From an uncultured bacterium (GTDB lineage Bacteria; Armatimonadota; Abditibacteriia; Abditibacteriales; Abditibacteriaceae): a stretch of 64,000 nt of DNA. Positions within the stretch are counted from its first letter, which is position 1. Every line of letters begins with the position of its first letter. The translations under genes and the position numbers were made by a program. The stretch is from NCBI GenBank assembly GCA_963843795.1, contig CAWJLW010000010.1, forward strand, positions 124,001-188,000, written 5' to 3'. The notes beneath the pieces were generated by a model, which was given only the letters and a program-made list of their open reading frames with translations, searched no databases and was not told the origin of the DNA. Below are positions 2,099 through 63,104 of this stretch, piece after piece.

Positions 2099-2222
2099 GA
2101 TTTTCTCGGTACTTAAATTGTGTGTCGCAAGTACTTGCACCGCGATTTTCAGGCCAGAAAAACTGGCAAAAACACAAAACGCGATGCAATTTCCGTGCAC
2201 CGCGCCGCCAGAGTCTCACGAC

Positions 2223-3230
2223 CTAAAGCGCGCCACCAATATTGGGCCGCAAAACCTGACAGCCCAGCGCGCCCAGTTTTTCCCGCAAACGCGCGTAAAT
2301 CGCATCATCCGCGCAAACGCCGGTAATCGCGCCGCCGCTGCCGGTGAAGTGCGCGCTCGCGCCGCAACTGCGCGCGGTTTCGATCATTTGCGCGTGCGCT
2401 TTTTGAATCGGCATAATGCGACGGCGCAGCTCGAAATTAAAATCAATCAAGCGGCTGAACTCTTCGACATCGTGTTTCAGCAACGCGGCGCGCGCATTTT
2501 CTGCCACTTTCCCCAATTCTTCCATCGTGGCCAAAACCTGTTCGTCGCCGCGCTCCCAGCGCGCGCGCAAGTCGTTGTGCACGATGTCGGAAGTTTCGGC
2601 CCATTCGATGCGATACGCGAGATAAATCGGCGGCAATTCGGAAACTTCCAAACGCTCGTACCGCCCGATTTTGTGGGTTTGCAAATGTTCGCGCTCGAAA
2701 TCCATAAAGACCAAGCCTTCGTAAGCCTGCGCCACGCGGTCTTGCAAACCGCCTTCGATTTTGAGTTCCTCGCGTTCGGTCGCTAAAACCCAGTTCGCCA
2801 GAATCCCGGGCGTGATGTCGATTTCAAAAAACTCCATCAGGGCGCGAAAAGTCGCCGTGATAATCGCCGAACTGCCCGCCATGCCGACGCCGCGTGGAAT
2901 GGTGGTTTCGTAACGAATCGAAAAGTTGCGTTTGGCCAGTTCGATTTCGTTCGCGACACAATAATCGTGAAATTTTTTCAGCGAAGCTTTCACCAAACGC
3001 AAGCCGCCGTAATAGCCGAAACGGCCCACGTCTGAAGCCAGCGCATCGAACGAATCGAAGCGCACATGATCTTCGATTCCGGGCAAAATTTCCAGCGTGG
3101 GCCATTCGTATAAAACCACCGTCGCGGCAAAATCGCGCATCGTATAAGACAGCGTTTTTCCGAAATATCCATCGGACGGATTGCCCGCTAAAGCCGCGCG
3201 CGCGAACGCCTTAGTTTTGATTCGTTGCAT
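2223..3230 (-). CDS. GHMP-family sugar kinase, glucuronokinase-like
   Basis: GHMP ATP-binding motif IPRGVGMAGSSA, GGLQDR and C-terminal FTGSGGA. The N-terminus ARAALAGNPSDGYFGKTLS resembles eukaryotic glucuronokinases. ATG at 3230 chosen (ORF track starts at TTG 3245). Confidence 0.8.
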   Translation of the reverse strand: MQRIKTKAFARAALAGNPSDGYFGKTLSYTMRDFAATVVLYEWPTLEILPGIEDHVRFDSFDALASDVGRFGYYGGLRLVKASLKKFHDYCVANEIELAKRNFSIRYETTIPRGVGMAGSSAIITATFRALMEFFEIDITPGILANWVLATEREELKIEGGLQDRVAQAYEGLVFMDFEREHLQTHKIGRYERLEVSELPPIYLAYRIEWAETSDIVHNDLRARWERGDEQVLATMEELGKVAENARAALLKHDVEEFSRLIDFNFELRRRIMPIQKAHAQMIETARSCGASAHFTGSGGAITGVCADDAIYARLREKLGALGCQVLRPNIGGAL

Positions 3231-3251
3231 ATTTTTCGTATTCAAACATTC

Positions 3252-3375
3252 ACCGCAAAGAACGCAAAGGTCGCGAAGTTAGAGAAAAGAAGCTAGAGAA
3301 AGGAGAAACGGGCCGCGCAAGTACTTGCACGAACATTCTTTCAAGAATCTTTGCGGTCTTCGCGTTCTTTGCGGT
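3252..3375. repeat. Intergenic element with 27-bp terminal inverted repeats built from 9-bp units, enclosing one core palindrome
   Basis: Left arm accgcaaagaacgcaaaggtcgcgaag (3252-3278) matches the reverse complement of the right arm 3349-3375 at 23/27 positions. GCAAGTACTTGC lies at 3317. Confidence 0.75.
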
Positions 3376-4275
3376 TTAATTTTCGTTCGCCAATAATTCT
3401 TTCAGGTGCTGCCGCAAACCCGCGCCATGTTTGGGATCGGCCAAAGCAAATTCAACAAAGGTGCGGAAATAATCTTCAAAATTGCCGATATCATAGCGCC
3501 GGTCGCTTTCGCTCAGGCGCACGCCGAGCACTTTTTGGTTGTCTTGCAGCAAAAGTCGAATCGCATCGGTTAATTGAATTTCGCCGCCTTTTCCGGGTTT
3601 GGTTTCGCGCAGTGCAGCGAAGATTTCGGGCGCGAAAATATAACGCGCGGCGACCGCCAAATTCGAAGGCGCTTCGCTTTGCGTTGGTTTTTCAATCATA
3701 TCGCGCACCGTAAAAAACTCGCCTTCAGCGGGTGCCGAACCGTCGATTTTGGCGATGCCGTATTGCGAAACATCGCTTTCCGGCACAGTTTCAAAGGCGA
3801 TGACGGCGCTGCAATTTTCGGTTTCAAACTTCTGCGCCATCTGCTGCAAAATCATCGAAGGCGCGCCGCGTCCCAAAATCGAATCGCCCAATGCAACCGC
3901 GAACGGTTCGGGGTCGCAAAACGGCGCGGCGTGCAAAATCGCATCGCCCAGACCGCGCTGCGATTTCTGGCGCGTGTAGAAAAAATCGGCGCGCGCGCTT
4001 TCAAACGCCAGCTCGTCCAGCAAATCTTCTTTGCCGCTTTCGCGCAGCTGGCGAATCAGCATCGGATCGCTATCGAAATGGTTTTCGATGGCGTTTTTGC
4101 TGGCTCCGGTGATAAAAAGCAAGCGCGTGAAATCGTTGGCTTCCAGCTCTTCGACCACATATTGCACGACCGGCTTTTTGCCGACCGGCAGCATTTCTTT
4201 GGGCTGACTTTTGGTCGCGGGCAGCATTCGAGTGCCCAGCCCCGCGACGGGAATGACCGCGTTACGAATATTCAT
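3376..4275 (-). CDS. galU: UTP--glucose-1-phosphate uridylyltransferase family
   Basis: Motifs AVIPVAGLGTRMLPATKSQPKEMLP, GLGDAI, EKP, GGEIQLTDA and RYDIG. Confidence 0.9.
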   Translation of the reverse strand: MNIRNAVIPVAGLGTRMLPATKSQPKEMLPVGKKPVVQYVVEELEANDFTRLLFITGASKNAIENHFDSDPMLIRQLRESGKEDLLDELAFESARADFFYTRQKSQRGLGDAILHAAPFCDPEPFAVALGDSILGRGAPSMILQQMAQKFETENCSAVIAFETVPESDVSQYGIAKIDGSAPAEGEFFTVRDMIEKPTQSEAPSNLAVAARYIFAPEIFAALRETKPGKGGEIQLTDAIRLLLQDNQKVLGVRLSESDRRYDIGNFEDYFRTFVEFALADPKHGAGLRQHLKELLANEN

Positions 4276-4297
4276 AATTGATTTTTTAACTTAAAAC

Positions 4298-4321
4298 GGC
4301 GCTGCAAGTACTTGCAGCGCC
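4298..4321. terminator. 24-bp perfect palindrome centred on the core motif; probable terminator or hairpin
   Basis: ggcgctgcaagtacttgcagcgcc abuts the stop codon at 4322. An A-run to its left gives a U-tract on the minus strand. Confidence 0.55.
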
Positions 4322-7213
4322 TTATTTAGCTGGCGGCGTAGATTGCTGCGATTCACGATAAAGCGCGTTCAGCTGTGAAGGCGTGACGGCGACGTATTCG
4401 GGGCCGAGAATTTCCAGCATTTCCTTCAAATCGCTCAGCTTCGAGCCCCAGTTCCACACAAACGAATTGACAAAAGCCGGACGCTGTGTGCCGACGCGAC
4501 GGCGAATTTGGTCGGCCATATTTTGCGCGCCGCCTTCGGCTCCAACCGCTGCGCGAAAAACTGGCTGCCCGGTCGGCAAAGTATAAGTCAGTTCGCCGTA
4601 ACTTTTCGCGCCCGAAAAGCCATAATCGGGCATCAAGAACGCAACGTCCGGCAGCAGTTTGCCCACGCGCGGAATATCGGGCGTGCCCACATTCATCAGG
4701 CGAATGGTTTTCATATCCATGCGCTGCATCGCGCCGTTGGTCATGTCGTAGAACGAGCGAAACGCGCCATCGCGGTCTTTGAGCGTTTTGCCCCAGTCCG
4801 GCGAATAAATATAACCTACGCCCGAAACATCGCAGATAAATTCGTCGTTGGGCGTAGCGTGTTCGTAGAACCAGCGCGCCATCGTCGGCGCGACTTCGCC
4901 CAAAGTTGGAGCCATGCCCCAGCCAATCGGAATCGTGCCGTGCAGCGGGTCGGAAAAATAGTTGCGAAAATAGCCCGGCCACGTCACGATATTATCTCCA
5001 TCCGACATCGTAAATGACAAGTAAACCTTGCTTTTATCCAGCGCGGGCGCGGGCTTGAACGATTGTTTTAAGGGCGCCGAAGGCACGCCACTGTAAACCG
5101 AAAAGTTCTGGATTAAATCGGAAACGACGGTGATTTTGCCGAAGCGCGAACCCAGCGCGACGCCGAAATTTTCGTCCATGCCGTTTCCATCGCCGTGCCA
5201 CCAGAAGCCGCGCACAATCGCGTTCAGCGGCATCGCGGCCAGCAACGCTTTAATTTCTTCCAATTCATCGGCGGTGTTGGCACCCGGCAAAATTTGCTGT
5301 TTGGGGCCGGTAATCCAAAAAACCACGCCTTTGCCCGCGATAATTTGGTCGATGGCTCCGTTTTCTAAAATCGGCGGATCGACGCACATCGACAAGTACT
5401 TATTGGCGCGCGGCAGCAAGGTTTCGCGCGTAAAACGCAAGGCGTCGGCGTTGCTGCGAAAGCGACCGCGCAAATCGACGCGAATCGGTAAGTTCAAGCG
5501 TTGCGCCAGTTCAGGAGTGGAAATCAGCAGATTATCCAGACCGGCCAGCGTAGTGGCAACGCACGCGCTGGTGTAAACATTCGGGTCGGGCACCACGGCG
5601 CCTTGAATTTCACCGCGAAATTTCTCGACTAAAGATAACGGATCGGCGACGACAATCGGCGTGTCGGTCGCTTTTTGGCGTTGTAATTCTTCCAGCCAAA
5701 ATTCGTTATCCTCGTTGGTCAACAGATAAATGCGCGGCTGTTTGCGATTGACGATGCCTTGCAAACACACCAGCGCCAAACGCTCGTCCGATTTCAAGCT
5801 GCGTACATCGACGACATATAAATGGCGCGCAAGCGGCGGCGATTTGGGCTGCAAAGTTTGATACGGACGCGGCACTTTGGGCAGAACTACGTTCGTCCAC
5901 AAGCGCGGACGCGGAAGTTTCGCCAAAGCGCTGAAAGCCGCATTTTGCTTTTGAGCCGAGAGCAAACCTTTTTCGCCCAAAGCGGCAATCGCGCCGCGCA
6001 CCAGCATTTGCTGCGTGTCGTAACCATCCAAATCTTCGGTCGAAGGATGATGCGTTCGCACATCGACCGCACCTTTGAATTCGCCGCCGCGATGAATCAG
6101 CATGGCCGCCAAAGGGTGCCCGCTTTCCAGTAGAATCGGTTTGACCTGCACGGTCGCGGGCAAATTTTCGACATCAATCGACTGCACGCCAAGATTGCTC
6201 GGCCAAGCGCGATTCATCGAACGCAAGCGCAATGGATCATTCGGCGCGACCGTTACCGAGCCGGGCACAGCGGCGCTAAATCCGCCCACACCGATGCCAT
6301 CCGTGCCGAAGCCGTTCAGCTCGTTGACATGTCCCAAATCTTCCCAATCGACACCTGAATCTTCGAAGCCCGCGTTGGGCATCGCGACCTTTTTCCCCTC
6401 GACGCTGACCGCAATATCGTCCAAGCGTATCACACGTTTGGCGCTGCGCACTTGCGGCGCGACATCGAAAGCGGTGGCCTGAGTTGGAACCGTTACAGTC
6501 GCGCTCAAGAATTGCCAATCGCTTCCCATTGTCAGGTTGGCGCCCTCTTGATAAAAAAACTCGCCTCGCGCATCGAAAAAGCGCACATACAGAAAGTCTT
6601 TGCCGTTGTTTTCACCACTTACGCTTTGCGCCCACGCCGAAACCGTGATTTTTTGTCCGGCAAGTACTTGCTGACGCGGCGAATGAACGCCGACCCAATC
6701 GATGCCTGGCTCGGTTAATTGCAGAGCCGATTTTCCACCGTGCGATTGCTCGACCACGCGCACATCTGCGTTCCAACGCGGATCGGCCCTCCAACTTTGA
6801 GCCGAAATGTTAATCACAGGATGCGTGAACGGCACACCGCTCGTAATCAGACAGCCGCCAGCACGATGAAAAGCGCGCAGATTATCGAAAGCCACACGCG
6901 GAAAATTGTTACCATAAGGCAGAATCACCGCCGCGTAGCGATTGATATTGAAGCGTCCGGCATCTCTCAAAGCCGCCGCATCCAAAACGTCTGTCGATAC
7001 TTGCGCCGCTTGCAATTCCTGCGCGATTCTTTTCGGAGTGGTCAGCGGCGACACCATATTGAAAGGAAATCCGTTCTGCACGAAAACCGCGACACGCGGT
7101 GCGACCAACTTTGGAGCAGGAGCCGATGGTGATTGTGCTGATGCGCTAAGACACAAACTCGCGCCACAAGCCATCAGGCCAACAATCTTCAGGCAAGTCG
7201 CAATAGATTTCAT
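4322..7213 (-). CDS. Secreted GxGYxYP-domain protein (putative glycoside hydrolase) with CBM4/9-like module
   Basis: Signal peptide. LQGIVNRKQPRIYL, MSDGDN and SGVGYIYSP are hallmark segments of the GxGYxYP family. A carbohydrate-binding-like insert ends in NAGFE. Confidence 0.8.
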   Translation of the reverse strand: MKSIATCLKIVGLMACGASLCLSASAQSPSAPAPKLVAPRVAVFVQNGFPFNMVSPLTTPKRIAQELQAAQVSTDVLDAAALRDAGRFNINRYAAVILPYGNNFPRVAFDNLRAFHRAGGCLITSGVPFTHPVINISAQSWRADPRWNADVRVVEQSHGGKSALQLTEPGIDWVGVHSPRQQVLAGQKITVSAWAQSVSGENNGKDFLYVRFFDARGEFFYQEGANLTMGSDWQFLSATVTVPTQATAFDVAPQVRSAKRVIRLDDIAVSVEGKKVAMPNAGFEDSGVDWEDLGHVNELNGFGTDGIGVGGFSAAVPGSVTVAPNDPLRLRSMNRAWPSNLGVQSIDVENLPATVQVKPILLESGHPLAAMLIHRGGEFKGAVDVRTHHPSTEDLDGYDTQQMLVRGAIAALGEKGLLSAQKQNAAFSALAKLPRPRLWTNVVLPKVPRPYQTLQPKSPPLARHLYVVDVRSLKSDERLALVCLQGIVNRKQPRIYLLTNEDNEFWLEELQRQKATDTPIVVADPLSLVEKFRGEIQGAVVPDPNVYTSACVATTLAGLDNLLISTPELAQRLNLPIRVDLRGRFRSNADALRFTRETLLPRANKYLSMCVDPPILENGAIDQIIAGKGVVFWITGPKQQILPGANTADELEEIKALLAAMPLNAIVRGFWWHGDGNGMDENFGVALGSRFGKITVVSDLIQNFSVYSGVPSAPLKQSFKPAPALDKSKVYLSFTMSDGDNIVTWPGYFRNYFSDPLHGTIPIGWGMAPTLGEVAPTMARWFYEHATPNDEFICDVSGVGYIYSPDWGKTLKDRDGAFRSFYDMTNGAMQRMDMKTIRLMNVGTPDIPRVGKLLPDVAFLMPDYGFSGAKSYGELTYTLPTGQPVFRAAVGAEGGAQNMADQIRRRVGTQRPAFVNSFVWNWGSKLSDLKEMLEILGPEYVAVTPSQLNALYRESQQSTPPAK

Positions 7214-7280
7214 CAGGTAATTCCCATTTAATACAACGCGAACAAACGAATCGGCTCCTGCAAGTACTTGCAGCGCGCTA

Positions 7281-9398: not shown

Positions 9399-9455
9399 GG
9401 CCTTCTATTTTACATTGTTTCAAGCAGATTCCATCAATTCAATTCACAAAAAGTC

Positions 9456-9489
9456 AAAGCCCGCCTGCAAGTACTTGCAGGCGGGCTTT
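9456..9489. terminator. 34-bp perfect palindrome centred on the core motif; probable ugd terminator
   Basis: aaagcccgcctgcaagtacttgcaggcgggcttt, 15 nt past the ugd stop. Confidence 0.65.
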
Positions 9490-9504
9490 TCAGGGAAACG
9501 GCTT

Positions 9505-10836: not shown

Positions 10837-10895
10837 AAATCTTTTGCTAAAATTTTTCTGACCAAACGCTTTTGTTTACAGCATTTGAAGAAAGT

Positions 10896-17264: not shown

Positions 17265-17268
17265 GTTT

Positions 17269-54151: not shown

Positions 54152-56182
54152 TCAGCCGTCAACGTGAACTTTGGGGCGCCGCATCACATCTTTTTCAGCT
54201 TGTCTTAGCACTTCTCGGGTGACGGGAGCGGTGTCACCTTCACCGAAGAAGATATAGCGCGCCATGAAAACCAGCGGGTTGCCTTCGCTCCACGCGAAAT
54301 ATACATGAGGACGTTTGCCCGTCATATCGCGCAGATACAGCAGCAAGGCCGCTATCGCATTGGGAACCGTCGGGGCTTCCGCCCGCAAAATGCGATAGCC
54401 ATCGACTTCTTCACCGCGCACGGTTAAAACTCCGCTGAATTCGGAGGCATCTTTCACATCAACTTCCAAGAACAGGATCGGATACGAAGCCGGAATGTGC
54501 GAATCGATGCGCTGCATATCTTCTTTGCGCGCATATTCGAGCGCGTTGGCTTCACCGGGCGTATCGCGTTTATGAGCGATGAGGCGCACACCGTTTCTCT
54601 GCGCTTCGCCCTGAGCTTCCATCACGAAACGCTGCGCCGCGCCATCCAAAACCACTTTGTCGATGCGCAGTTCGGTCGAGCGCAGGGCGCGCGAAAGAAT
54701 CGATACAAAGATAATAATGCCGATAAAAACGCCCGCGATCTGCAAGCCTTCGGGCTGATCGTGAATATTTTGATAAGTCGTGTAAATAAAAATCAGCGTG
54801 ATAATGCCAAAGCCGAAAGTCGCCGCGTTTTGCTTGGCGCGCCACGCCGAAAGCGTGACGGCGATGGTTGCCGAAGTCATCAGGGCTAACACTCCGGTTG
54901 CGTATGCGCCCGCCTGCGAATCGACATCAGCATCGAAAGTGTAAGTGACGTAGAAGCAAATCGCGGTAAAAATCAACGTCAACGGACGTGTGGTGCGTGC
55001 CCATTCCGGCGCCATTCCATAGCGCGGCAAATACCGTGGCACGATATTCAATAAACCGGCCATCGCCGAAGCACCTGCAAACCACAAGATAAAAATGGTG
55101 GAAAGGTCGTAAACCGTTCCGACGCCATCGCCGAAATAAAGATGCGCGAGATAAGCCAGCGCACGCCCGTTGGCCGGTCCAGCTTCTTCGGTTTCAGTGG
55201 CTTCTTTGAATAACTCGTGTGGAATGAGAATTGTAGTGACCAAGCTGCTGGCAATTAGCAAAATGCTCATCACAATCGCCGCAGTTGTGAGAAGTTTGCG
55301 GGTGTTGCGGATGCGTCCCTGCGGATTTTCTTCGGTATCTTCGGCATCACCTTTGACCAGCGGCATCACCACAACACCGGTTTCGAAGCCCGATAATCCC
55401 AATGCCAAACGCGGAAACAGCAGCGCTGCGACGCCGAACATAGTCCACAAATTTGGATACTCGGAAAACAAGTTATTTTTCCAGTTGGCAATCAGCTGCG
55501 GGTTTTGTGCGATTTCGATAAATCCGCGCCCGAGAACCACAAGGTTGAAGCTGATATAAAGCGCCACAATCGCGATAGCGATGCCGATGGCTTCGTTGAA
55601 ACCCTTCAAAAATACCGCGCCCAAAAGCGCAATTAAACCCAGCGTGACCAGAACTTCGTGTCCCTGCAAACCCTGCGCGAAGGGGTTTTCCACGATGTGT
55701 TTGGTGGCATCAGCCGCCGAAAGCGTGATGGTAATGACAAAGCCAGTGGCTACGAAACCGATCAAACACAACACGAAAATTTTGCCCTGCCACCACGATA
55801 GCAAGTGTTCGAGCATTGAAATCGAGCCATCGCCGTGCGGACTTTCTCCGGCCACGCGCTTATACATCGGCAGCGCGCCAAAAAGTGTTAGTAAAACCAG
55901 AATAAAAGTCGCGACCGGAGACAGCGCACCCGCCGCCACTGCGGCGATACCGGGCTGATAGCCCAGTGTCGAGAAATAATCCACGCCGGTGAGGCACATC
56001 ACTTTCCACCATGGATGTGTGTGCCCCTGGGCGCTATGCTCTTCTTCGTAGGCAGCTTCGTGCGATGCGCCCGACTGATCGGCCAAAAGCCAGCGGCCAA
56101 ATGGCCCCAATTGCTTGCGATTTTTATGGCCTGCCGGTTCGACCGCATCGGACGAATATGAACTTAAATCTGAATCAACCAT
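54152..56182 (-). CDS. APC-superfamily amino acid/cation transporter (KimA-like architecture), paralogue 1
   Basis: [23 protein letters not shown] and [10 protein letters not shown]; about 12 transmembrane helices plus a cytoplasmic C-terminal domain. Confidence 0.85.
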
Positions 56183-56284
56183 TTATAGCGTCCTCGTACC
56201 CGACATTTGCTGGCGTAGCTTTCATGGATTTTTTCATGCGATTTCAACTTAACTCAATCACGCCTTCGTGTCATGCCAAGTCAC

Positions 56285-56320
56285 GCAAGTACTTGCATCG
56301 GCAAGTACTTGCCGATGCAA
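56285..56320. repeat. Two core motifs, the second at the centre of a 28-bp perfect palindrome
   Basis: Copies at 56285 and 56301. Palindrome ttgcatcggcaagtacttgccgatgcaa at 56293-56320. Confidence 0.85.
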
Positions 56321-56345
56321 ATTTCAGCCAGCATTTGACTATCGA

Positions 56346-58424
56346 CTAGCTATCGACATGGATTTTGGGCCGGCGCGCAACATTTTTTTCAGCTTGTCTT
56401 AGCACTTCTCGGGTGACGGGAGCGGTGTCGCCTTCACCGAAGAAGATATAGCGCGCCATGAAAACCAGCGGGTTGCCTTCGCTCCACGCGAAATATACAT
56501 GAGGACGTTTGCCCGTCATATCGCGCAGATACAGCAGCAAGGCCGCTATCGCATTGGGAACCGTCGGGGCTTCCGCCCGCAAAATGCGATAATCGCCAAT
56601 TTGCACGCCACGCACATTCAAGACTCCGCTGAATTCAGAGGCATCGCGCACTTCGATTTCCAAGAACAGGATCGGATACGAAGCTGGAATGTGCGAATCG
56701 ATGCGCTGCATATCTTCTTTAAGCGCATATTCCATTTCGCGTTCACTATCGTTTTTGTCCGGCTCGCGTTTGTGCGCAATCAATCGCACGCCCGTTCTCT
56801 GGGCATCGCCCTGCGCTTCCATCACGAAACGCTGCGCCGCGCCATCCAAAACCACTTCGTCGATGCGCAATTCGGTCGAGCGCGCGATGCGCGAAAGAAT
56901 CGAAACCAGCACGATAATGCCGATAAAAATGCCCGCGATATGCAAACCTTCGGGGCGCTGAAAAATGTTGACGATAGTTGTATAAGCGAAAATCAGCGTC
57001 GTTAGGACAAAGCCAACAAAAGCCCGAGTTTGTTTGAGTTTGCGCGCAGAGAGCATCGCGGCAAACGACGCCGAAGTAATCAAAACCAGCACGCCGGTCG
57101 CATAGGCACCACCTTGAGCATCGACATCGGCCTCAAACGAAATCGTGACCAGAAACGCGATCAACGTAAAAACCAGCACTAAGGGTCGCGCGGCTTTGGC
57201 CCATTCCGGTGCCATACCGTAGCGCGGCAGATAGCGCGGCACCAAATTCAACAACGCCGCCATCGCCGAAGCGCCCGCAAACCACAAAATTAAAATCGTC
57301 GACAAATCGTATAAAGTGCCAAAACTATCGCCGAAAAACCGATGCGCCAGAAGCGCCAGAGCGCGCCCGTTAGCTTGGCCAGCCTTGTCCAAATTTTCGC
57401 AACCCGGGATGCCAACGGTTGTGCCTGCGCCGCAAAAATCCTGCGGCGCGATCAACATCGAAGATACAAAGCTCGATGCAATTAAAAACACGCTCATAAT
57501 CAAGGCCGCAGTCAGCAACAGTTTGCGCGTGTTGCGAATGCGACCCTGCGGAAATTGCTGGTCGTCGTCAGGTTCGCCTTTGACCGTTGGCATCACCGCG
57601 ACGCCAGTTTCAAAGCCCGATAAGCCCAGCGCCAATTTGGGGAAAACCAACAAGGCCAAGCCAATCATCGTGAACGGACTGCCGCCGGTTTTCTGGGTCA
57701 CCATTTGCTGCCAGTGACTGAGATACGCGGGATGAGCGAAGATTTCGATCACACCACGCACGACTACGATGCCATTCAAAACCAAATAGGTAGTGGTCAG
57801 GCCGACCGCGATGCCGATAGCTTCGCTAAAGCCTTTTAAGAATACCGCCGCCAAGAGCGCGATTAAGCCCAGCGTAATAAGCACTTCGTGATGATGCGCA
57901 CCCGCAGGCGCAAAAGGATTGCTCACGATGTGCGCCGTCGCGTCCGCCGCCGAAAGCGTTATCGTGATGATGAAATCGGTGAGTGCAAAGCCCAGTAAGG
58001 CCAGTACGAACAATTTGCCCTGCCACCAGGTCAGCAGCCGTTCCAGCATCGCAATCGAACCTTGTCCATGCGCGCTTTCGCCCGCCACGCGGTAATAGAT
58101 TGGCAGCGCACCGAAAAGCGTCAGCAAGACTAAAATGAACGTCGCGACCGGAGACAGCGCGCCAGCGGCCAAAAACGCAATGCCAGGCTGATAGCCCAGC
58201 GTCGAGAAATAATCGACGCCAGTGAGACACACCACTTTCCACCATGGCTGCGGGTGATGCTGCGCGCTCTGCTCTTTTTGATAAGGAGCCTGATGCGAAG
58301 ACCCCGACTGATCGGCCAAAAGCCAGCGCGTCAACTTTCCCCGACGCCCCTCGCGACGCGGCGCGGGTGGCACAATCGGCTCCAAGCTATCGGCAGAAAA
58401 TGAACCCAAATCCGACTCTACCAT
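56346..58424 (-). CDS. APC-superfamily amino acid/cation transporter, paralogue 2
   Basis: Same motifs as paralogue 1. Start chosen by alignment of MVESDL with MVDSDL. Confidence 0.85.
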
Positions 58425-58590
58425 GTGGCAATCCACCTTTTTGGCATCAACCGCGCGCCTCATTTAGACACTAAACGCACGCGACGATTTTGTGATTAAT
58501 TTCACAAAGCCAAAAGCGCATTTTAGCAATCTATCTCGCGCGTGTCGAGAGCGATTTACCACAGCAGGGACTTGCTGTAATTACTTAAAA

Positions 58591-58635
58591 AAGAGGGTGC
58601 AAGTACTTGCGCATGGCAAGTACTTGCACCCTCTT
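58591..58635. terminator. Hairpin with two core motifs flanking a 5-nt spacer
   Basis: aagagggtgcaagtacttgc-gcatg-gcaagtacttgcaccctctt, preceded by an A-run (U-tract on the minus strand), after the stop at 58650. Confidence 0.7.
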
Positions 58636-58649
58636 CTGTACCGGCTCAT

Positions 58650-59516
58650 TCACGCCTCAAGAGGCGCGCCGATTTCCTGCAATAAGGCTGTCGCGGTTTG
58701 ACACGCCACGACGAAACATTCTTCTTCACTCATCGCGGAAAATTGCTGATTGCTTTGACCGCTCGGCCCGGTCGCCATCACGGCAGCCGAATGTTTGAGA
58801 TGCGGCTCGACGGCCAGCGGCCCGCTCCAACCGCGCGCCAGTGCGTCGCTGAGAATTTCGCGCGCGCGGCCCGCACCGTGCCCGATGGGAACGTGCTGAT
58901 TTTGCGCGCTGGAATCTTTAAGATGAAAAGCGTCTGTGCAATCGCGCAGCAATTCCCACACTTGCCACACATCTTCGCCGCTCTGATTGTAGTTGTCGAA
59001 ATCAAAAATCAGCTTGAAGTTATCGTCGCGCAGATTCTTAGCAATAGTAAGAACGTCTTTACCCAAATCGCCGAAAATGTGGCGTTCGTTTTCGTGATAT
59101 AAGACTAAATTCACTTCACTCGCCGTGTGCTTTAAGGCCGCCAGACGTTCCAGACTTTTGCTTTGCCATTCGTCGTGACTGAGGCCTTTGGCGTTGTAAT
59201 ACGAAAAAATTCGCACGTTACGGCAACCGAAAATATCGGCCATATCAGCCAGATGGCGCAGCTTATCGTGTTCGGTTGGCATCGGCTCGCTGATATCGAT
59301 TTTGCCAATGGGCGAGCCGAACATCTGGACGGAAATTTTCGCGTCGTCCAACTGTTTTTTAATTTCGCGCGCGCGCACTTTGGGCAAACCGGCGATATTG
59401 AAACCTTCGATGCCGCGAATATCAAGGCGCGTCAAACCAGCTTTGCGCGTGGCGTCGATCTGCATTTGTGTGCTGTCACCGGCTTCGTCGGCAAAAGCGC
59501 TGAGTGTCCAAGTCAT
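58650..59516 (-). CDS. Sugar phosphate isomerase/epimerase (xylose isomerase-like TIM barrel)
   Basis: LSAFADE, GSPIGK, LYHENE, FDFDN, FHLKD and VEPHL. Confidence 0.88.
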   Translation of the reverse strand: MTWTLSAFADEAGDSTQMQIDATRKAGLTRLDIRGIEGFNIAGLPKVRAREIKKQLDDAKISVQMFGSPIGKIDISEPMPTEHDKLRHLADMADIFGCRNVRIFSYYNAKGLSHDEWQSKSLERLAALKHTASEVNLVLYHENERHIFGDLGKDVLTIAKNLRDDNFKLIFDFDNYNQSGEDVWQVWELLRDCTDAFHLKDSSAQNQHVPIGHGAGRAREILSDALARGWSGPLAVEPHLKHSAAVMATGPSGQSNQQFSAMSEEECFVVACQTATALLQEIGAPLEA

Positions 59517-59626
59517 GATGTTTTCCTTTTTGTCTGTCCGTCGTGCTGCAAGTTACTTGCAGCATATTTTAACGACGAAACATCAATTTAACACGATTGG
59601 TAGCGCAGCCGATTATCCTATAAATC

Positions 59627-61060
59627 ATGTCAATTCAATCTTCGCCAGAAGTCGAACCCTCGATTGCGACCGGACAGAAAGCACTCAACATCAATTTGGA
59701 TATTGGGCGTTATGGCACTTTCGCCGAAATCGGTGCGGGACAAGAAGTTGCGCGCTGGTTTTTTCGCGTCGGCGGCGCATCGGGCACGATCGCCAAATCG
59801 ATGTCGGCCTACGATATGACAGTATCCGACGCGATTTATGGCCCGTGCCAGCGTTACGTTTCGTGCGAACGCTTGTTAAAAATGCTCGACCACGAATACG
59901 AACTTTTAGTCGAACGCTTGCAAGCCACGCGCGGCGACAACACGGCCTTTTTCGCCTTCGCCGACACCGTCGCCACGCGCAATTTCAAAGGCACTAACGA
60001 ATGTCACGGCTGGATGGGAGTGCAATTTCAAACCGAGCCGCACGGCGCGCCGCACCATGTCTTGATTCACGCACGGCTGCTCGACCAAAATTCGCTTTCG
60101 CAGCAGGAAGCGATGGGCATTCTGGGCGTCAATTTAGTGCATGGCGCGCTGAATTTATGGCAAACACCCGAAATTCTCATCGAATCGCTGCGCGATAGCT
60201 TAAGTTTGGAGCGTTTGGAAGTCGATATGATTCAGTTTCGCGGCCCGGAATTTTCGCACATCGACCATCGCTTGATGAGCCTGAAATTGGTGCAACTCGG
60301 CCTCAGCAACGCCGCCATGTTTGGCCCGGACGGACAAATTTTGCAACCTTCGGAAACGCTTTACAAGCGCCCGGTCATCGTCGAACGCGGCAGCTTCCGC
60401 CCTTTGACCCTGGTGAATTTGGATATGCTCGATTGTGCTGAGGAGCAATTCAAGTCCGAAAGCGATGTCGAAGCCGAAAATGTGTTGCGTTTGTTTGAAA
60501 TTACCATGACCAATTTGCTGGCCACGCGCACGGAAAACGGCGAAATCGACTACGCCGATTTTCTGGCCCGCGCCGACATTCTGGCCGCGACCGGCGCGAC
60601 AGTTTTAGTTTCCAATTATCTGGAATATTTCCGGTTGGCGGCGTATCTGGCACGCTTCACCAAAAAGAAAATTGGCATTACGATGGGTATTCCCAGCGTG
60701 CGCGAATTGTTCGACGAAAAGTATTACGAGAATTTAGAAGGTGGCATTCTGGAATCGTTCGGGCGCTTGTTCAAAAACGATTTGAAGTTGTACGTTTATC
60801 CCGTTAAAGAAGACGGACATTTGACGACCGTGCAAAAACTCAAAGTCGCGCCACACTTGCAGCATTTATACGAGCATCTAGTCGAAAATGGGTCCATCGA
60901 ATCTTTAGATTTTTATCAGCGCGATTATCTGCATATTTTTTCGCGCGACGTGTTGAAAAAAATTGCGGAGGGCGATGAATCATGGGAAAAAATGGTGCCT
61001 CAATCTGTCGCCGATAGCATTAAAATTCACGGCTATTTCGGTTATCACCAAATAGAATAA
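59627..61060 (+). CDS. Conserved uncharacterised protein with nucleotidyltransferase (NadD-like) C-terminal half
   Basis: YGTFAEIGAGQEVARWFFRVGGASGTIAKSMSAYD, ERGSFRP (cf. GSFNP of NadD-like enzymes) and C-terminal SRDVLKKI...WEKMVPQSVA. No signal peptide. Confidence 0.65.
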   Translation: MSIQSSPEVEPSIATGQKALNINLDIGRYGTFAEIGAGQEVARWFFRVGGASGTIAKSMSAYDMTVSDAIYGPCQRYVSCERLLKMLDHEYELLVERLQATRGDNTAFFAFADTVATRNFKGTNECHGWMGVQFQTEPHGAPHHVLIHARLLDQNSLSQQEAMGILGVNLVHGALNLWQTPEILIESLRDSLSLERLEVDMIQFRGPEFSHIDHRLMSLKLVQLGLSNAAMFGPDGQILQPSETLYKRPVIVERGSFRPLTLVNLDMLDCAEEQFKSESDVEAENVLRLFEITMTNLLATRTENGEIDYADFLARADILAATGATVLVSNYLEYFRLAAYLARFTKKKIGITMGIPSVRELFDEKYYENLEGGILESFGRLFKNDLKLYVYPVKEDGHLTTVQKLKVAPHLQHLYEHLVENGSIESLDFYQRDYLHIFSRDVLKKIAEGDESWEKMVPQSVADSIKIHGYFGYHQIE

Positions 61061-61148
61061 TCTGAAACGAACAAAGAAATGGCAAGCCACCAAAGTTCTT
61101 GTCTCACTTAGCAAGTTACTTGCAGACAAGCCTTCTTTGTTTTGTGGC

Positions 61149-62957
61149 TCATTTTTCGGCAGCCAGTTTCTTCACGCTTTCCAGCGTATCAATTTCTTCG
61201 ACCGGCTTATCGGGGCGCAGACGCACGATGCGCGGAAATCTCAGCGCATAGCCGCTTTTGTGGCGTGGCGAAAGTTGCACGCGGTCGAAAGTGACTTCGA
61301 GCACGATTTGCGGGTCGACGGTGCGCACTTTTCCGTGTGCGAATTCCTGCCGCGTGTGTTCGCGGAACCATTGCGAAAGCTCGGAAATTTCGGTGTCGGT
61401 GAGGCCGGAATAAGCTTTGCCGATATTCAACAGCGTCGCATCGGTTTCGCTGGTACGCACGGCGAACGTGTAATCGGATAATTCTTTGCTACGCCGACCC
61501 GAACCGACTTCAACGCTGGTGACGACGACATCCAAAGTCGCTAAGGCGCGCTTGATTTTCAGCCATTCTTTGCCGCGTCGTCCCGGCGAATATTGCGAAC
61601 GTAAATCCTTCACGATCAAACCTTCGTTGCCGCGTGCCCGCGCCGCGTCGAATTCCGCATCGAGCTGCGCGATGCCGTCGAACACTTTGGAAGTTGCCAA
61701 TCTCGCGCGTTTTTGGTCGAACGGCAGCGCAGCAAGTACTTGCCGCCGCTTTTCAAACGAGTTTTCCAGCAAAACTTCGCGTTTGGCATACAAGCAATCG
61801 TAAGCCATAAACGCGGCGGGCATTTCCTTTAACATTTGCGCGCTCACGGTTTTGCGGCCCAGACGTTTTTGCAAAGTTTGGAACGGTAAAATGCGCCCAT
61901 CGGCTTCGTCAATGGGCAAAATTTCGCCGTCTAAAATCAAACCTTCGCCCACTTTGCCACCGGCCAACAATTGTTTCAAAGGTTCGATTAAGTCGGGAAA
62001 TGCGGGCGTAATGTCGTCCAGCGTGCGCGAAAATAACGCTACGCGCACGCTTCCGTCCGATGCGATTTCGATGTGCGCCTGGCCGCGAATGCCATCGAAT
62101 TTATCTTCGACCGCGAACTTGTCGGGCATTTGCTTGTCCACATCAGCCAAACTTTCCGTTGGCGAGGCGAGCATCGATTTCAGCGGATGAAACAATTGCA
62201 TCTGCGCCGTCGCCAGCGCGCGCTGGCGCGCCAAAAGTGCGGTTTGTCCCAAATCGCCCAGCAGCATATTAGCGCGCTGCACTTCGCCGGTTTTCACGTC
62301 GAACTGACGCGCCAAGGCGTCTTCGACGCCACTTTCTTTGAAGCCGATGCGCAGATCGTTGGCAAGCATACGCACCAGATATTTGGCTTCAAGCGGATGC
62401 AGGCGTGCGAATTCCTGCGTCAACAATTGCTTTTTGGCACCGCTGCCCGCAGTGTCGGCGAGTTCGCCTAAAAATTGTTGAATATCGGCCAGCGTCCAAC
62501 GATTTTCACGCAGCGCGCTGGGCGTTTCCGACAATAATTCAAAGGCCACATCGCCGGGATCGCCCAATTTTACCAGCCGCGCTTTGAGCGTATTTTCCTC
62601 GACGTTGGCGGCTGAAGCCAGCGCGCTAAGGAGCATCGCGCTGCCAATGTTCACGGTGCGCGCATCGCGGCCGGGAAAGTTTTGACCTCCGAAAAAGCGC
62701 GTCGCCAGTTGCAAGTTGTCATCGGACAAGGTGGCGAAATAGGTTTGCGCGAGAATCGCTTTTTCCAGTCGCTTGGTAGTCGCGCCAATGGCTTGCGCGG
62801 TTTGCGCGAAATTCAAAAACGAGTCGGATTGGGTTTGTTCGGTTGGAGAATTTGACACGCGCGCCGGTTTTGCAAGTGGCGCGCCAGCCTTTTGAGCATT
62901 GGCGATGGGCTGAAAAGCCAGTGGCGCGAGCGCGGCAGCGAAAAGAAAGCGTTTCAT
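61149..62957 (-). CDS. ATP-dependent DNA ligase (LigB/archaeal type with DNA-binding domain) carrying an apparent signal peptide
   Basis: Motif I EDKFDGIR, III LILDGE, IIIa AYDCL, IV EGLIVK, V WLKIK and VI LRFPRIVRLRPDK. DNA-binding domain cues GDPGDVA, EAKYLVR and LRIG. N-terminus MKRFLFAAALAPLAFQPIANA|Q. Confidence 0.93.
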   Translation of the reverse strand: MKRFLFAAALAPLAFQPIANAQKAGAPLAKPARVSNSPTEQTQSDSFLNFAQTAQAIGATTKRLEKAILAQTYFATLSDDNLQLATRFFGGQNFPGRDARTVNIGSAMLLSALASAANVEENTLKARLVKLGDPGDVAFELLSETPSALRENRWTLADIQQFLGELADTAGSGAKKQLLTQEFARLHPLEAKYLVRMLANDLRIGFKESGVEDALARQFDVKTGEVQRANMLLGDLGQTALLARQRALATAQMQLFHPLKSMLASPTESLADVDKQMPDKFAVEDKFDGIRGQAHIEIASDGSVRVALFSRTLDDITPAFPDLIEPLKQLLAGGKVGEGLILDGEILPIDEADGRILPFQTLQKRLGRKTVSAQMLKEMPAAFMAYDCLYAKREVLLENSFEKRRQVLAALPFDQKRARLATSKVFDGIAQLDAEFDAARARGNEGLIVKDLRSQYSPGRRGKEWLKIKRALATLDVVVTSVEVGSGRRSKELSDYTFAVRTSETDATLLNIGKAYSGLTDTEISELSQWFREHTRQEFAHGKVRTVDPQIVLEVTFDRVQLSPRHKSGYALRFPRIVRLRPDKPVEEIDTLESVKKLAAEK

Positions 62958-63104
62958 GAAATTATCTTAACCGTTTTTTGCCGAAAATTTGTCGAAACGC
63001 GCCCTGCAAGTACTTGCAGCAAGTGTTTGTGTGCTTTGCCACATCGGTTATCTTACGTTTGCTGTATATGCGAGAACGGAATTTGCGCACGCTTCCATCA
63101 GTCA

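What the first reader, a model, noticed from the sequence alone, without database searches (positions are those of the whole stretch)
2127..63017. Candidate new highly iterated palindrome: GCAAGTACTTGC about every 1.6 kb
Seen: about 39 exact copies in 64 kb by hand count, versus about 0.004 expected at uniform base composition. Roughly 26 are intergenic, marking most intergenic gaps, and 13 are inside genes. Flanks are unrelated between sites, so this is not a mobile element with a body. Known: comparable genome-wide short motifs are cyanobacterial HIP1 (GCGATCGC, linked to methyltransferase sites) and the DNA-uptake sequences of Neisseriaceae and Pasteurellaceae, which are non-palindromic and often found in terminators. 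This 12-mer matches neither, and I do not recognise it as described. Inference: it is the cis-acting part of an uncharacterised system, such as DNA-uptake specificity, methylation-directed repair or recombination (it nests GTAC and AGTACT), or a nucleoid-protein site.
Basis: partly seen in the sequence, partly recalled or inferred. Interest (0 to 1): 0.93.

Follow-up and report, generated by a model that had tools for sequence, protein, structure and literature searches.

The report
Genome-wide palindrome tag with phased flanks
This bacterium has written one 12-letter DNA palindrome into its genes and spacers about every 1.7 kilobases, with flanks patterned as if DNA wraps around a protein there; it resembles the self-DNA tags of cyanobacteria and Neisseria, but what reads it is unknown.

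Summary
Real and genome-wide. GCAAGTACTTGC occurs 39 times in the window and 2,567 times in this Abditibacteriaceae genome (about 0.7 expected), on all 11 contigs, evenly from origin to terminus, and is missing from islands. The 754 coding copies arose mostly by substitution, changing amino acids, and fill gaps between intergenic copies. Many intergenic copies cap terminator-like hairpins. Five relatives carry other AGTACT-centred dialects; this scan noted the same family before on another genome (e1-5297255).

New here: (1) The flanks are not random. AA/TT content oscillates at about 10.5 bp to about 65 bp each side of the dyad, also at synonymous positions and in three of four relatives tested, which points to DNA wrapped on a protein. 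The phase does not match E. coli gyrase. (2) All six motif-rich genomes keep an orphan methyltransferase, probably for GTAC, and no partner nuclease was found in them. Relatives that keep the nuclease mostly purge GTAC (only three independent contrasts, not significant).

Best reading: a HIP1/uptake-sequence-like self tag on a domesticated methylation site, accumulated through transformation-linked drive (0.45). Main rival: nucleoid-protein sites (0.27). The reader protein and methylation are not shown.

The parts
2127..2138 (.). 12-mer, intergenic between same-direction genes, no hairpin extension
3317..3328 (.). 12-mer, intergenic, downstream of galU-like gene
4304..4315 (.). 12-mer, intergenic, 6-bp extra arms, 6 bp after a stop codon
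6660..6671 (.). 12-mer inside gene (- strand), reads Q-QVLA
7260..7271 (.). 12-mer, intergenic, 9 bp after a stop codon
8648..8659 (.). 12-mer inside sulfatase-like gene, reads GKYLQ
9467..9478 (.). 12-mer at apex of terminator-like hairpin (11-bp extra arms), 26 bp after UDP-glucose dehydrogenase
11220..11231 (.). 12-mer inside flavin oxidoreductase gene, reads ASTC
11938..11949 (.). 12-mer inside same gene, reads LQVLA
12981..12992 (.). 12-mer inside fabF-like gene, reads ASTC; an orthologue has RHIP at this place without a gap
15735..15746 (.). 12-mer at apex of terminator-like hairpin (10-bp extra arms)
16292..16303 (.). 12-mer inside M16-peptidase-like gene, reads LQVLA; orthologues read LRVLA
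17246..17257 (.). 12-mer, intergenic, 7-bp extra arms
17288..17299 (.). 12-mer inside 3' end of gene, reads AQVLA
18944..18955 (.). 12-mer, intergenic
21471..21482 (.). 12-mer at apex of bidirectional terminator-like hairpin (17-bp extra arms) between convergent genes
23043..23054 (.). 12-mer at apex of hairpin (9-bp extra arms), 30 bp after acs
24256..24267 (.). 12-mer inside acs, reads TQVLA; orthologues mostly read (D/N)ETLD-like, without gaps
24625..24636 (.). 12-mer inside acs, reads SQVLA; orthologues mostly read G(Q/E)LLR, without gaps
29583..29594 (.). 12-mer at apex of terminator-like hairpin (12-bp extra arms)
31496..31507 (.). 12-mer at apex of hairpin (12-bp extra arms) between convergent genes
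40495..40506 (.). 12-mer, intergenic
40772..40783 (.). 12-mer, intergenic, 21 bp after ruvA
42725..42736 (.). 12-mer at apex of long hairpin (27-bp extra arms)
46981..46992 (.). 12-mer at apex of hairpin (9-bp extra arms)
49601..49612 (.). 12-mer, intergenic, 7 bp after a stop codon
51440..51451 (.). 12-mer inside gene (+ strand), reads CKYLQ
51492..51503 (.). 12-mer inside same gene, reads LQVLA
52118..52129 (.). 12-mer between convergent genes, no long hairpin
53299..53310 (.). 12-mer inside gene, reads PQVLA
53563..53574 (.). 12-mer in a 35-bp intergenic gap
54097..54121 (.). pair of 12-mers (54097, 54110) forming the two arms of one hairpin
56285..56312 (.). pair of 12-mers (56285, 56301), intergenic
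58599..58627 (.). pair of 12-mers (58599, 58616) forming the two arms of one hairpin
61732..61743 (.). 12-mer inside ATP-dependent DNA ligase gene, reads RQVLA
63006..63017 (.). 12-mer, intergenic
2067..63077 (.). Statistical feature of the copies as a set, not visible in one copy: AA/TT oscillation of about 10.5 bp out to about 60 bp from each edge of the 12-mer. The linked methyltransferase gene lies outside the window (G000:C6:2517365-2518135, - strand; L079, P0001).

Best explanation
The 12-mer is the dyad of a protein-DNA site of roughly 130 bp. SHOWN: both halves and their exact spacing are kept; both flanks carry phased AA/TT; sites arise mostly by substitution at permissive positions and saturate at about one per 1-2 kb; related species use other flanks around the same AGTACT core. 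INFERRED: the core GTAC is methylated by a conserved orphan beta-class methyltransferase left over from a GTAC restriction-modification system. Losing the nuclease lifted selection against GTAC. A two-fold symmetric reader that bends DNA then adopted the site, and dialects reflect drift in its specificity. MOST LIKELY PURPOSE (inferred by analogy): a self-DNA tag in natural transformation (uptake, processing or recombination), which drives its own accumulation as DUS/USS do and as is proposed for HIP1. Use at the apex of terminator-like hairpins is secondary co-option.
For: Copy number and spacing (1 per 1.67 kb) match DUS/USS (PMC2397512 and PMC7811141 passages). 754 of 851 peptide-compatible coding sites carry the exact 12-mer against about 5 expected from codon usage, and ASTC occurs 133 times against 4. 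Amino-acid identity at motif codons is 31.5% against 61.6% elsewhere, as described for USS/DUS (PMC2817400 abstract). Motif-free stretches of 25-33 kb hold a type I R-M island, an IS-rich region and a high-GC VirB-like stretch (gene labels read by eye). Coding copies fill gaps: 0.08 per kb within 200 bp of an intergenic copy, 0.34-0.47 per kb beyond 1.5 kb. There are species dialects with a shared core, as for DUS (PMC3630211 abstract), and phased AT tracts as in USS. ComEC, ComEA and RecA were found, with DprA- and PilB/PilT-like genes by signature words. The methyltransferase orthologue is in 6 of 6 motif-rich genomes and the partner nuclease in 0 of 6. A 60%-identical homologue lies directly behind an R.PabI-family gene (that family targets GTAC, PMC2588503 passages). 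GTAC is at 0.03 of expectation in 11 pooled nuclease-bearing genomes. Precedents for methylated palindromes in transformation: RAATTY/CtsM (PMC10046745 passages) and HIP1 (10.1101/2024.09.10.611283 and PMC13756078 abstracts).
Against: No reader was identified, and no uptake or methylation data exist here. Competence genes are equally present in relatives without the motif, so they do not discriminate. pilC is split by frameshifts in this assembly, though whole in most other motif-rich genomes. DUS/USS are not palindromes, and a wrap of about 65 bp on both sides fits a chromosome-bound protein at least as well. The methyltransferase is also in 16 genomes of the class without an AGTACT motif and in many other phyla without any such motif. 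Its putative DNA-reading loops do not differ between motif-rich and other genomes, so it cannot explain the dialects. The nuclease/motif exclusion rests on 3 independent pairs (sign test p 0.5), and three motif-rich genomes are only 63-89% complete. G007 and G004 have the methylase without the nuclease and no GTAC-centred motif. G016 and G025 avoid GTAC with neither gene found. Coding copies cluster slightly with one another (0.218 against 0.173 +/- 0.021 within 500 bp).
Confidence: 0.45

Rival explanations
1. Chromosome-architecture site: an abundant dimeric nucleoid protein binds the 12-mer, wraps about 130 bp and organises or insulates supercoiled DNA about once per gene. Direct selection keeps the density up.
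For: Two-sided AA/TT phasing to about 65 bp from the dyad, independent of the first tract and absent at matched random anchors, with the same phase in G009, G012 and pooled metagenome loci. One copy per gap regardless of gap length. Pair density is 0.51-0.68 of expectation below 1 kb. Highest density lies between convergent genes (4.1 per kb against 1.9 between divergent ones). A structural role is proposed for HIP1 (PMC5861425 abstract).
Against: No candidate protein: no PF00808 histone fold in 5 of 5 genomes, no TetR in G000, a single HU in each of 5 genomes, no extra ParB in G009 or G012. No ori/ter bias and no visible 10-90 kb periodicity (by eye). It does not by itself explain the GTAC core or the absence of the nuclease.
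Confidence: 0.27
2. Methylation-directed repair ratchet (Elhai's HIP model): a MutH-like reader nicks next to a methylated site, so mutations that create a site are fixed until every base lies within about 1 kb of one. The motif is then largely a by-product.
For: The model predicts saturation near 1 per kb and gap filling (PMC4390886 section 3.4, part 1), as seen. An orphan methyltransferase and MutL/MutS-like genes are present. The nuclease family next to the methylase has MutH as its top fold match (Z 6.4, tied with NhoI and DpnI).
Against: That nuclease was not found in any motif-rich genome. The model builds 5-8 bp words by one-base extension of the methylase site and predicts deviations at the outer bases. 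Here 12 positions are held about equally (one-mismatch counts 110, 40, 62, 154, 60, 80 from outside in), and 60 bp of phased flank must be explained too.
Confidence: 0.12
3. Hard-wired strong gyrase sites: GCAA^GTAC^TTGC is the G-segment and the phased arms wrap the GyrA C-terminal domains.
For: The 12-mer fits all three core preferences of bacterial type II topoisomerases (-4G/+8C, -2A/+6T, +1G/+4C; PMC12324340 section 12). Period (10.4-10.7 bp) and reach resemble the 130-bp gyrase motif (PMC6379681 passages). One GyrA/ParC-family gene was found in 29 of 31 genomes of the class and none in 2 incomplete ones.
Against: The phase is wrong: r = -0.53 against the E. coli gyrase GC profile when centred, best +0.73 at a shift of -4 or +6 bp, and the amplitude decays instead of staying flat (matrix). 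The G001 and G009 dialects miss -4G and/or -2A. GyrA shows no insertion or DNA-gate residue tied to the motif. GyrB was not examined.
Confidence: 0.06
4. Residue of a REP/MITE-like mobile hairpin, or simply the species' terminator loop.
For: 383 of 554 terminator-like hairpins after stop codons contain AAGTACTT. Relatives hold REP-like repeats: G006 a GTAC-ended inverted pair (30 full pairs among 95 half sites in 112 kb), G016 GTAG-type pairs, G004 and G020 others.
Against: 754 copies lie in genes, and 103 of 134 site-alignments have no gap nearby. 1,050 of 2,567 copies have no arm extension at all. 237 of 476 divergent gaps, which need no terminator, carry one. G000 has only one weak partial Y1_Tnp hit and no small GIY-YIG.
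Confidence: 0.07
5. Assembly or sequencing artefact.
For: The assembly has frameshift errors, and 66 copies carry a one-base insertion at the centre that is rare in four other genomes (77 against 5-10 matches).
Against: The motif keeps reading frames and skews the proteome. Independent assemblies of other species carry dialects. Sites are shared at orthologous positions.
Confidence: 0.01

Closest known systems
HIP1 (GCGATCGC) and alternate HIPs of cyanobacteria (PMC4390886, PMC5861425, PMC13756078, 10.1101/2024.09.10.611283)
   Same: Genome-wide perfect palindrome at about one per 1-2 kb, in genes and spacers. It nests a 4-bp site probably served by an orphan methyltransferase. Alternative words occur in sister lineages, and some sites are kept at orthologous positions.
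   Different: Different phylum (Abditibacteriaceae). 10-12 bp and AT-cored rather than 5-8 bp and GC-rich. Dialects change the flanks while the methylase stays the same. Long phased AA/TT arms. Apex of most terminator-like hairpins. Outer bases are not the most degenerate.
DNA uptake sequences: DUS of Neisseriaceae and USS of Pasteurellaceae (PMC3630211, PMC2817400, PMC2397512, PMC7811141)
   Same: Density, species dialects around a fixed core, effect on the proteome at poorly conserved residues, absence from acquired DNA, co-option in terminators, flanking AT tracts (USS).
   Different: DUS/USS are asymmetric and form terminator stems as inverted pairs. Here one palindrome sits at the apex, both halves are needed, and phasing extends about six turns on both sides. 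No ComP-type receptor was found (search uninformative), and no uptake bias is shown.
Methylated RAATTY / CtsM self-recognition in Campylobacter jejuni (PMC10046745 passages)
   Same: A methylated palindrome made by a methyltransferase acts as the self tag for uptake.
   Different: That tag is a degenerate 6-mer equal to the methylase site. Here the iterated word is much longer than the inferred GTAC target.
E. coli gyrase motif (PMC6379681, PMC12324340)
   Same: Dyad-symmetric, about 130 bp, 10.5-10.75 bp GC/AT oscillation; the G000 12-mer fits the core base preferences.
   Different: The gyrase motif is degenerate, has no fixed 12-mer, and its arms are about 4 bp out of phase with these.
SlmA-binding sequence GTGAGTACTCAC (recalled; the word occurs in PMC3020112, search listing only)
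   Same: 12-bp palindrome with the same AGTACT core; 8 of 12 letters shared with the G000 word.
   Different: No TetR-family gene found in G000, no terminus exclusion, thousands of copies.
REP/RAYT and Ssn/SRM hairpin repeats (PMC11893778 passages; REP features recalled)
   Same: Palindromic, often after stop codons; such repeats occur in sister genomes.
   Different: Coding copies made by substitution, no conserved body, and no tracking transposase or small GIY-YIG nuclease in G000.

Membership tests
HIP1 / alternate HIP | Perfect palindrome hugely over-represented genome-wide, in and between genes | tested here: met
   2,567 against under 1 expected; 754 coding, 1,795 intergenic, 18 partial or at contig ends
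HIP1 / alternate HIP | Sequence GCGATCGC or a described GC-rich alternate, in a cyanobacterium | tested here: not met
   Different word; host is Abditibacteriaceae
HIP1 / alternate HIP | Orphan methyltransferase specific for an internal site | tested here: inconclusive
   One orphan PF01555 enzyme in G000, none of PF02086 or PF00145. GTAC specificity is inferred from a PabI-family neighbour and GTAC avoidance, not measured. Nearest solved relative is M.RsrI.
HIP1 / alternate HIP | One-base deviations concentrated at the first and last base | tested here: not met
   110, 40, 62, 154, 60, 80 from outside in
HIP1 / alternate HIP | Sites conserved at orthologous positions | tested here: met
   RAGTACTY shared at 6 of 14 G000 coding sites with G001, 9 of 22 with metagenome loci, 3 of 49 with G009, 2 of 27 with G012, 0 of 5 with G015/G019. 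The uniform expectation is under 0.04 each but ignores peptide constraint.
HIP1 / alternate HIP | 10-90 kb periodicity along the chromosome | tested here: inconclusive
   Pair-distance histogram to 150 kb is flat by eye; no formal fit
DUS / USS | About one copy per 1-1.5 kb, under-represented in acquired DNA | tested here: met
   1 per 1.67 kb; motif-free islands of 25-33 kb
DUS / USS | Non-palindromic unit, inverted pairs forming terminator stems | tested here: not met
   The unit is a palindrome at the hairpin apex; only 26 of 68 close pairs have outer arms of 4 bp or more
DUS / USS | Raises encoded peptides, sits at poorly conserved residues | tested here: met
   ASTC 133 against 4, QVLA 563 against 38; 31.5% against 61.6% identity; 0.14 per kb in genes over 70% identical against 0.23-0.37 in the rest
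DUS / USS | Species dialects around a shared core | tested here: met
   GCAAGTACTTGC, CAAAGTACTTTG, TCGAGTACTCGA, (C)GAGTACTC(G)
DUS / USS | Competence machinery present | tested here: met
   ComEC, ComEA, RecA; pilC split by frameshifts in this assembly; same genes in relatives without the motif
DUS / USS | ComP-type pilin receptor | tested here: inconclusive
   PF16732 in 0 of 31 genomes, but also 0 of 14 controls
DUS / USS | Sequence-biased DNA uptake | not testable with these tools
   Needs an uptake assay
Gyrase binding motif | Core preference -4G/+8C, -2A/+6T, +1G/+4C | tested here: inconclusive
   Met by the G000 word, missed at -4 by G001 and at -4 and -2 by G009/G015/G019
Gyrase binding motif | Arms with about 10.7 bp GC oscillation in the gyrase phase | tested here: not met
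   Period fits, phase does not: r = -0.53 centred
SlmA-binding sequence | TetR-family SlmA gene and terminus exclusion | tested here: not met
   PF00440 0 matches in G000; 47-83 copies per 100 kb in 35 of 37 bins of C6, including the skew-defined terminus
REP / RAYT | Extragenic element with conserved body, spread by insertion | tested here: not met
   754 coding copies; 103 of 134 site-alignments without nearby gap
REP / RAYT | Y1 transposase that tracks the repeat | tested here: not met
   G000 one weak partial hit (E 4e-7), G006 none; hits are commoner in motif-free genomes
Ssn / SRM | Small stand-alone GIY-YIG nuclease | tested here: not met
   G000 has two hits, in frames of 672 and 450 aa; small ones only in G009 of 5 genomes

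The most novel reading that the evidence does not exclude
A domesticated restriction site turned into a positioning code. After a GTAC restriction-modification system lost its nuclease, the methylated site became the dyad of a nucleosome-like particle: an unknown bacterial protein reads a 12-bp palindrome in the central major groove and wraps about 130 bp of DNA in nucleosome phase (AA/TT at about 15, 25, 36, 47, 57 and 67 bp from the dyad), once per gene. Selection for it has rewritten hundreds of codons, and reader and site have drifted together into species dialects.
Probability: 0.2. Interest if true: 0.93.

Novelty: new variant of a known kind. Interest (0 to 1): 0.78.

Why it matters
Only three lineages are well known for genome-wide short tags of this density (cyanobacteria, Neisseriaceae, Pasteurellaceae; recalled), and why HIP1 exists has been open for three decades (PMC13756078 abstract). 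This family offers a separate origin with natural contrasts inside one family: genomes with methylase plus nuclease that purge GTAC, genomes with the methylase alone that iterate it thousands of times, and several dialects. That makes the link between orphan methylases and iterated palindromes testable by comparison. If it is a nucleoid protein, it is a sequence-positioned DNA-wrapping factor in bacteria.

Tried and rejected
Reader hunt, all negative or uninformative: PF00808 histone fold 0 of 5 genomes (other histone-fold models not tried); TetR 0 in G000; HU one per genome in 5 of 5; ParB no extra copy shared by motif-rich genomes; small GIY-YIG not in G000; Y1_Tnp does not track the motif; ComP model silent everywhere including controls; a profile of the partner nuclease finds no diverged copy in G000's six frames (best E 2.1); an attempt to rank highly expressed basic proteins by codon bias converged on foreign genes and was useless. 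A whole-proteome presence/absence comparison could not be run.

An E-to-D change in a methylase loop first looked motif-specific but is shared by G007, G018 and G020. The gyrase reading was rejected on phase. Origin of the system is unresolved: the GyrA tree needs 2 changes and rejects one clade of the six GTAC-motif genomes it holds (p-AU 0.03, quick tree, G000 on a long branch; G001, G014, G024, G025 and G028 not in the tree), while the methylase tree groups the six AGTACT genomes with G020 at weak support (82).

Methylation from assembly errors: 66 centre-insertion copies, 8 of 8 frameshifting in clear coding context, specific to this assembly. There is no such excess at GTAC outside the motif, and a genome-wide frameshift scan was confounded by gene junctions, so this is a lead only. 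Reads: no RNA holder listed; two soil DNA runs of one study, possibly the source, cover parts of the window, and no listed piece bridges a copy by 31 bases on both sides.

Rfam: 0 matches in the window. The single-sequence fold of the nuclease failed (pLDDT 35). The aligned fold (pLDDT 92) had no Foldseek match at E 0.001 or better, and sequence search of the PDB found nothing. Paper searches for the exact 12-mer and for overrepresented + palindrome + AGTACT + genome + bacteria gave 0. Abditibacterium + genome gave 41 papers, 20 listed, none on repeats by title. The library omits most subscription papers, and bioRxiv supplements were closed.

Full report
OBSERVATION. The window holds 39 exact copies of GCAAGTACTTGC; 100 dinucleotide shuffles hold none. 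The genome (G000, 4.30 Mb, 11 contigs) holds 2,567, one per 1.67 kb, against 0.32-0.65 expected under order-2 and order-3 Markov models; all 11 contigs carry it, at one per 1.6 to 13.5 kb. Only 506 sites differ by one base. Half-sites are not in excess: of 2,806 GCAA-NNNN-TTGC sites, 2,567 have GTAC and the next word has 23. The host is a member of Abditibacteriaceae: the best named relative of one of its proteins is from Abditibacterium utsteinense (77%), and record titles agree.

PLACEMENT. Of 2,567 copies, 754 are coding, 1,234 lie between same-direction genes, 295 between convergent and 266 between divergent genes; 18 are partial or at contig ends. Occupancy of same-direction gaps is 55%, 56%, 54% and 50% for gaps of 50-100, 100-200, 200-400 and over 400 bp, so it is about one per gap and does not scale with length. 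Long hairpins (8 or more extra pairs) surround 184 of 295 convergent, 281 of 1,234 same-direction, 23 of 266 divergent and 7 of 754 coding copies. Of 554 terminator-like hairpins found after stop codons, 383 contain AAGTACTT. Along the 3.6-Mb contig density is 47-83 per 100 kb in 35 of 37 bins, with no dip at the skew-defined terminus. The long motif-free stretches are a type I R-M island beside a tRNA gene, an IS-rich region, a high-GC VirB-like stretch and most of contig C3 (labels by eye).

HOW CODING COPIES AROSE. 754 of 851 coding places whose peptide allows the 12-mer carry it exactly, against about 5 expected from codon usage; the peptides are inflated too (ASTC 133 against 4; QVLA 563 against 38). 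In 505 alignments to orthologues from 22 relatives there were 134 site-alignments (some sites counted against several genomes). 103 have no gap nearby and 31 do (23% against 10% background), and identity at motif codons is 31.5% against 61.6% overall. The copies are thus mostly substitutions at permissive residues. Some positions are shared across dialects: 6 of 14 G000 sites with G001, 9 of 22 with metagenome loci, 3 of 49 with G009, 2 of 27 with G012, 0 of 5 with G015/G019. Coding copies fill gaps: median distance to the nearest intergenic copy is 1,049 bp against 683 +/- 29 when moved anywhere in coding DNA and 944 +/- 29 when moved within their own gene. Density rises from 0.08 per kb within 200 bp of an intergenic copy to 0.34-0.47 per kb beyond 1.5 kb. 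Against this, coding copies cluster slightly with each other.

DIALECTS. The exact 12-mer occurs 0-3 times in the other 30 genomes of the class searched. De novo counts in 11-115 kb samples of 18 relatives showed other words on the same core: CAAAGTACTTTG in G001, TCGAGTACTCGA in G009, (C)GAGTACTC(G) in G012; G015 and G019 share the G009 word. RAGTACTY occurs 2,695-4,371 times in 6 of 301 genomes of the phylum and at most 396 times in the other 295. Contigs from three metagenome assemblies, 65-80% identical to G000 in DNA, carry AGTACT about once per kb with a looser form of the G000 word (these loci were selected on one 16-mer, which inflates that word). G006 has a GTAC-ended inverted-repeat element instead, and G004, G007, G016, G018 and G020 have unrelated repeats.

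PHASED FLANKS. Around 1,850 copies without long hairpins, AA/TT frequency peaks at 9 (41%), 19 (28%), 29-30 (24%), 41 (23%), 51 and 61 (21%) bp from the edge, with troughs of 11-16%; the best period is 10.4-10.7 bp. The signal is in coding and intergenic copies and is clearest at third codon positions, so protein helices do not cause it. The outer peaks remain in arms that lack the first tract and are absent behind matched random AT tracts; left and right arms vary independently. The same phase is seen in G009 (p 0.005), G012 (p 0.01) and the metagenome loci (p 0.01), not significantly in G001 (p 0.10, 85 sites). From the dyad the peaks fall near 15, 25, 36, 47, 57 and 67 bp. By established DNA geometry (recalled) that is a continuous bend with the central major groove facing the protein, the phase of a nucleosome and the opposite of CRP. 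I infer a two-fold symmetric reader that bends or wraps about 130 bp.

GYRASE TESTED. The G000 word fits the three core preferences of bacterial type II topoisomerases (PMC12324340, section 12), and period and reach recall the E. coli gyrase motif (PMC6379681, passages). Using that paper's frequency table (supplement sheet DS10), the GC profiles correlate at r = -0.53 when centred and +0.73 only after a shift of -4 or +6 bp. Other dialects miss the core bases, and GyrA has no motif-linked feature. I rate this low.

THE METHYLASE AND ITS LOST PARTNER. G000 has one PF01555 methyltransferase, solitary among housekeeping genes (neighbours), none of PF02086 or PF00145, plus two type I HsdM-like genes. 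Its nearest solved relative is M.RsrI. Orthologues were found in 22 of 31 genomes of the class, two of them broken. Three lines point to GTAC, none direct. (i) A 60%-identical homologue with the same putative recognition loops lies directly behind an R.PabI-family gene (L190), a family that targets GTAC (PMC2588503, passages). (ii) In loci with the methylase, GTAC is at 0.56 (Verrucomicrobia), 0.23 (Chlorobi), 0.20 (Acidobacteria) and 0.81 (one Poribacteria locus) of expectation, while GAATTC is at 0.53-1.22 (no control loci without the gene). (iii) A second gene sits beside the methylase in several loci; it has no Pfam match, a PvuII-like Atlas lead, and a confident model whose best fold matches are MutH, NhoI, DpnI and PvuII at Z 5.6-6.4, middling scores but nearly all nucleases of one fold in the top 25. 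This gene was found in 13 of 31 genomes, all with the methylase, and in none of the six AGTACT-rich ones or G006. Eleven of the 13, pooled, have 10 GTAC in 352 kb (0.03 of expectation); the other two are at 0.32 and 0.51. Of nine genomes with the methylase alone, seven iterate a GTAC-containing palindrome; G004 and G007 do not. Exceptions: G016 and G025 avoid GTAC with neither gene found. The contrast amounts to 3 independent pairs on the GyrA tree, none in the opposite direction, p 0.5, and three motif-rich genomes are incomplete. Whether the nuclease cuts unmethylated or methylated GTAC is not known. The methylase cannot specify the dialects, so a second protein is needed.

MECHANISM. Shown: a dyad-symmetric site with phased arms, built by substitution, saturating near one per 1-2 kb, in dialects. 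Inferred: GTAC methylation, release from restriction, adoption by a bending reader. For purpose I favour a self tag in transformation (0.45). The pattern repeats what is described for uptake sequences: proteome effects at poorly conserved residues (PMC2817400, abstract), spacing and absence from acquired genes (PMC2397512, passages), AT tracts (PMC7811141, passages) and dialects (PMC3630211, abstract). Methylated palindromes act in transformation in Campylobacter (PMC10046745, passages) and cyanobacteria (10.1101/2024.09.10.611283 and PMC13756078, abstracts). ComEC, ComEA and RecA are present but equally so in motif-free relatives, and pilC is frameshifted in this assembly. A nucleoid-protein site under direct selection (0.27) explains the long two-sided wrap at least as well (compare PMC5861425, abstract) but has no candidate. 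Elhai's repair ratchet (PMC4390886, abstract and section 3.4 part 1) predicts the saturation but not twelve held bases or phased arms (0.12). These readings are not exclusive.

MEMBERSHIP AND NOVELTY. It works like HIP1 and like DUS/USS but is a member of neither: wrong word and phylum for HIP1, palindromic for DUS/USS. It is not REP/RAYT, Ssn/SRM (PMC11893778, passages) or a SlmA site (PMC3020112, search listing only) on the features tested. I found no paper with the word (listing), within a library that lacks most subscription papers. I class it as a new variant of a known kind. The phased wrap and the methylase-without-nuclease pattern are what lift it above a further HIP example.

VERDICT. 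Observation confirmed; interpretation partly supported; interest 0.78.

Noticed in passing
G000 genome-wide, e.g. C6:396804 and C6:2281744: 66 copies read GCAAGT(A/T)ACTTGC, by far the commonest one-base insertion (next 13). All 8 in clear coding context shift the frame, and four other genomes have only 5-10 comparable matches. Probably a systematic consensus error at the motif centre, which could reflect a modified base.
   Followed up: partly
L228-L239, L182, L213 (alignment A1, model m527975735eb7): An unannotated 215-aa family (558 homologues) beside a beta-class methylase folds like PD-(D/E)XK restriction nucleases. Its presence goes with near-total loss of GTAC, even where the methylase gene is broken (G013, G022). 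A candidate new GTAC restriction enzyme family.
   Followed up: partly
G006 (L008, L042-L045, L599): A 26-27 bp inverted repeat, GTACGGTCG-N3-5-CGACCGTAC, with 95 half sites and 30 full pairs in 112 kb, in a genome with no Y1_Tnp hit. It combines GTAC and TCGA like the G009 dialect.
   Followed up: partly
G007 (L011, L050-L052), G018 (L013), G016 (L012, L053-L055): A non-palindromic dispersed word CAGCCACG(G/T/C)CG in G007 and G018, apparently also in genes; in sister G016 the same core is part of GTAG-type inverted pairs. Possibly a second, independent iterated motif.
   Followed up: no
G004 (L240-L243); G020 (L246): Other lineage-specific dispersed repeats: tandem ATCTGTG units ending ATCTGTGGTTAA in G004 (14 in 80 kb) and CCACAAAAAATGAA in G020 (29 core matches in 20 kb).
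   Followed up: no
class-wide (L532-L560): One PF00521 gene per genome in 29 of 31 genomes and none in two incomplete ones: these bacteria seem to have gyrase but no topoisomerase IV.
   Followed up: no
G000:C6:3590136-3623414: The last 33 kb of the main contig is 63-67% GC, motif-free and holds VirB-like genes: a foreign element or a chimeric join.
   Followed up: no
G000:C4 and C8: These contigs carry extra ParB genes, C4 also ParA- and resolvase-like genes, and hold the motif at lower density (1 per 4.2 and 2.9 kb); they may be plasmid-like.
   Followed up: no
G000:C6:397725-398950: pilC in the type IV pilus cluster is split by frameshifts; assembly error or decay is not decided.
   Followed up: partly
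window 31665-40359: A 2,700-aa Calx-beta-type surface protein with a short upstream ORF in another frame that matches the same family, probably one gene with a frameshift.
   Followed up: no
L405-L407, L412, L424, L425, L469: A few low-GC viral contigs carry several intergenic copies of TGCAAGTACTTGCACT, operator- or promoter-like, with no similarity to G000.
   Followed up: no
L001:1710-1730 (16S rRNA gene): A variable region of the 16S gene holds a near-copy of the motif with two extra bases in the middle.
   Followed up: no
phylum sample, families f11 and f34: RAGTACTY is almost absent (0-22) in most genomes of these two families, suggesting further GTAC-avoiding lineages.
   Followed up: no
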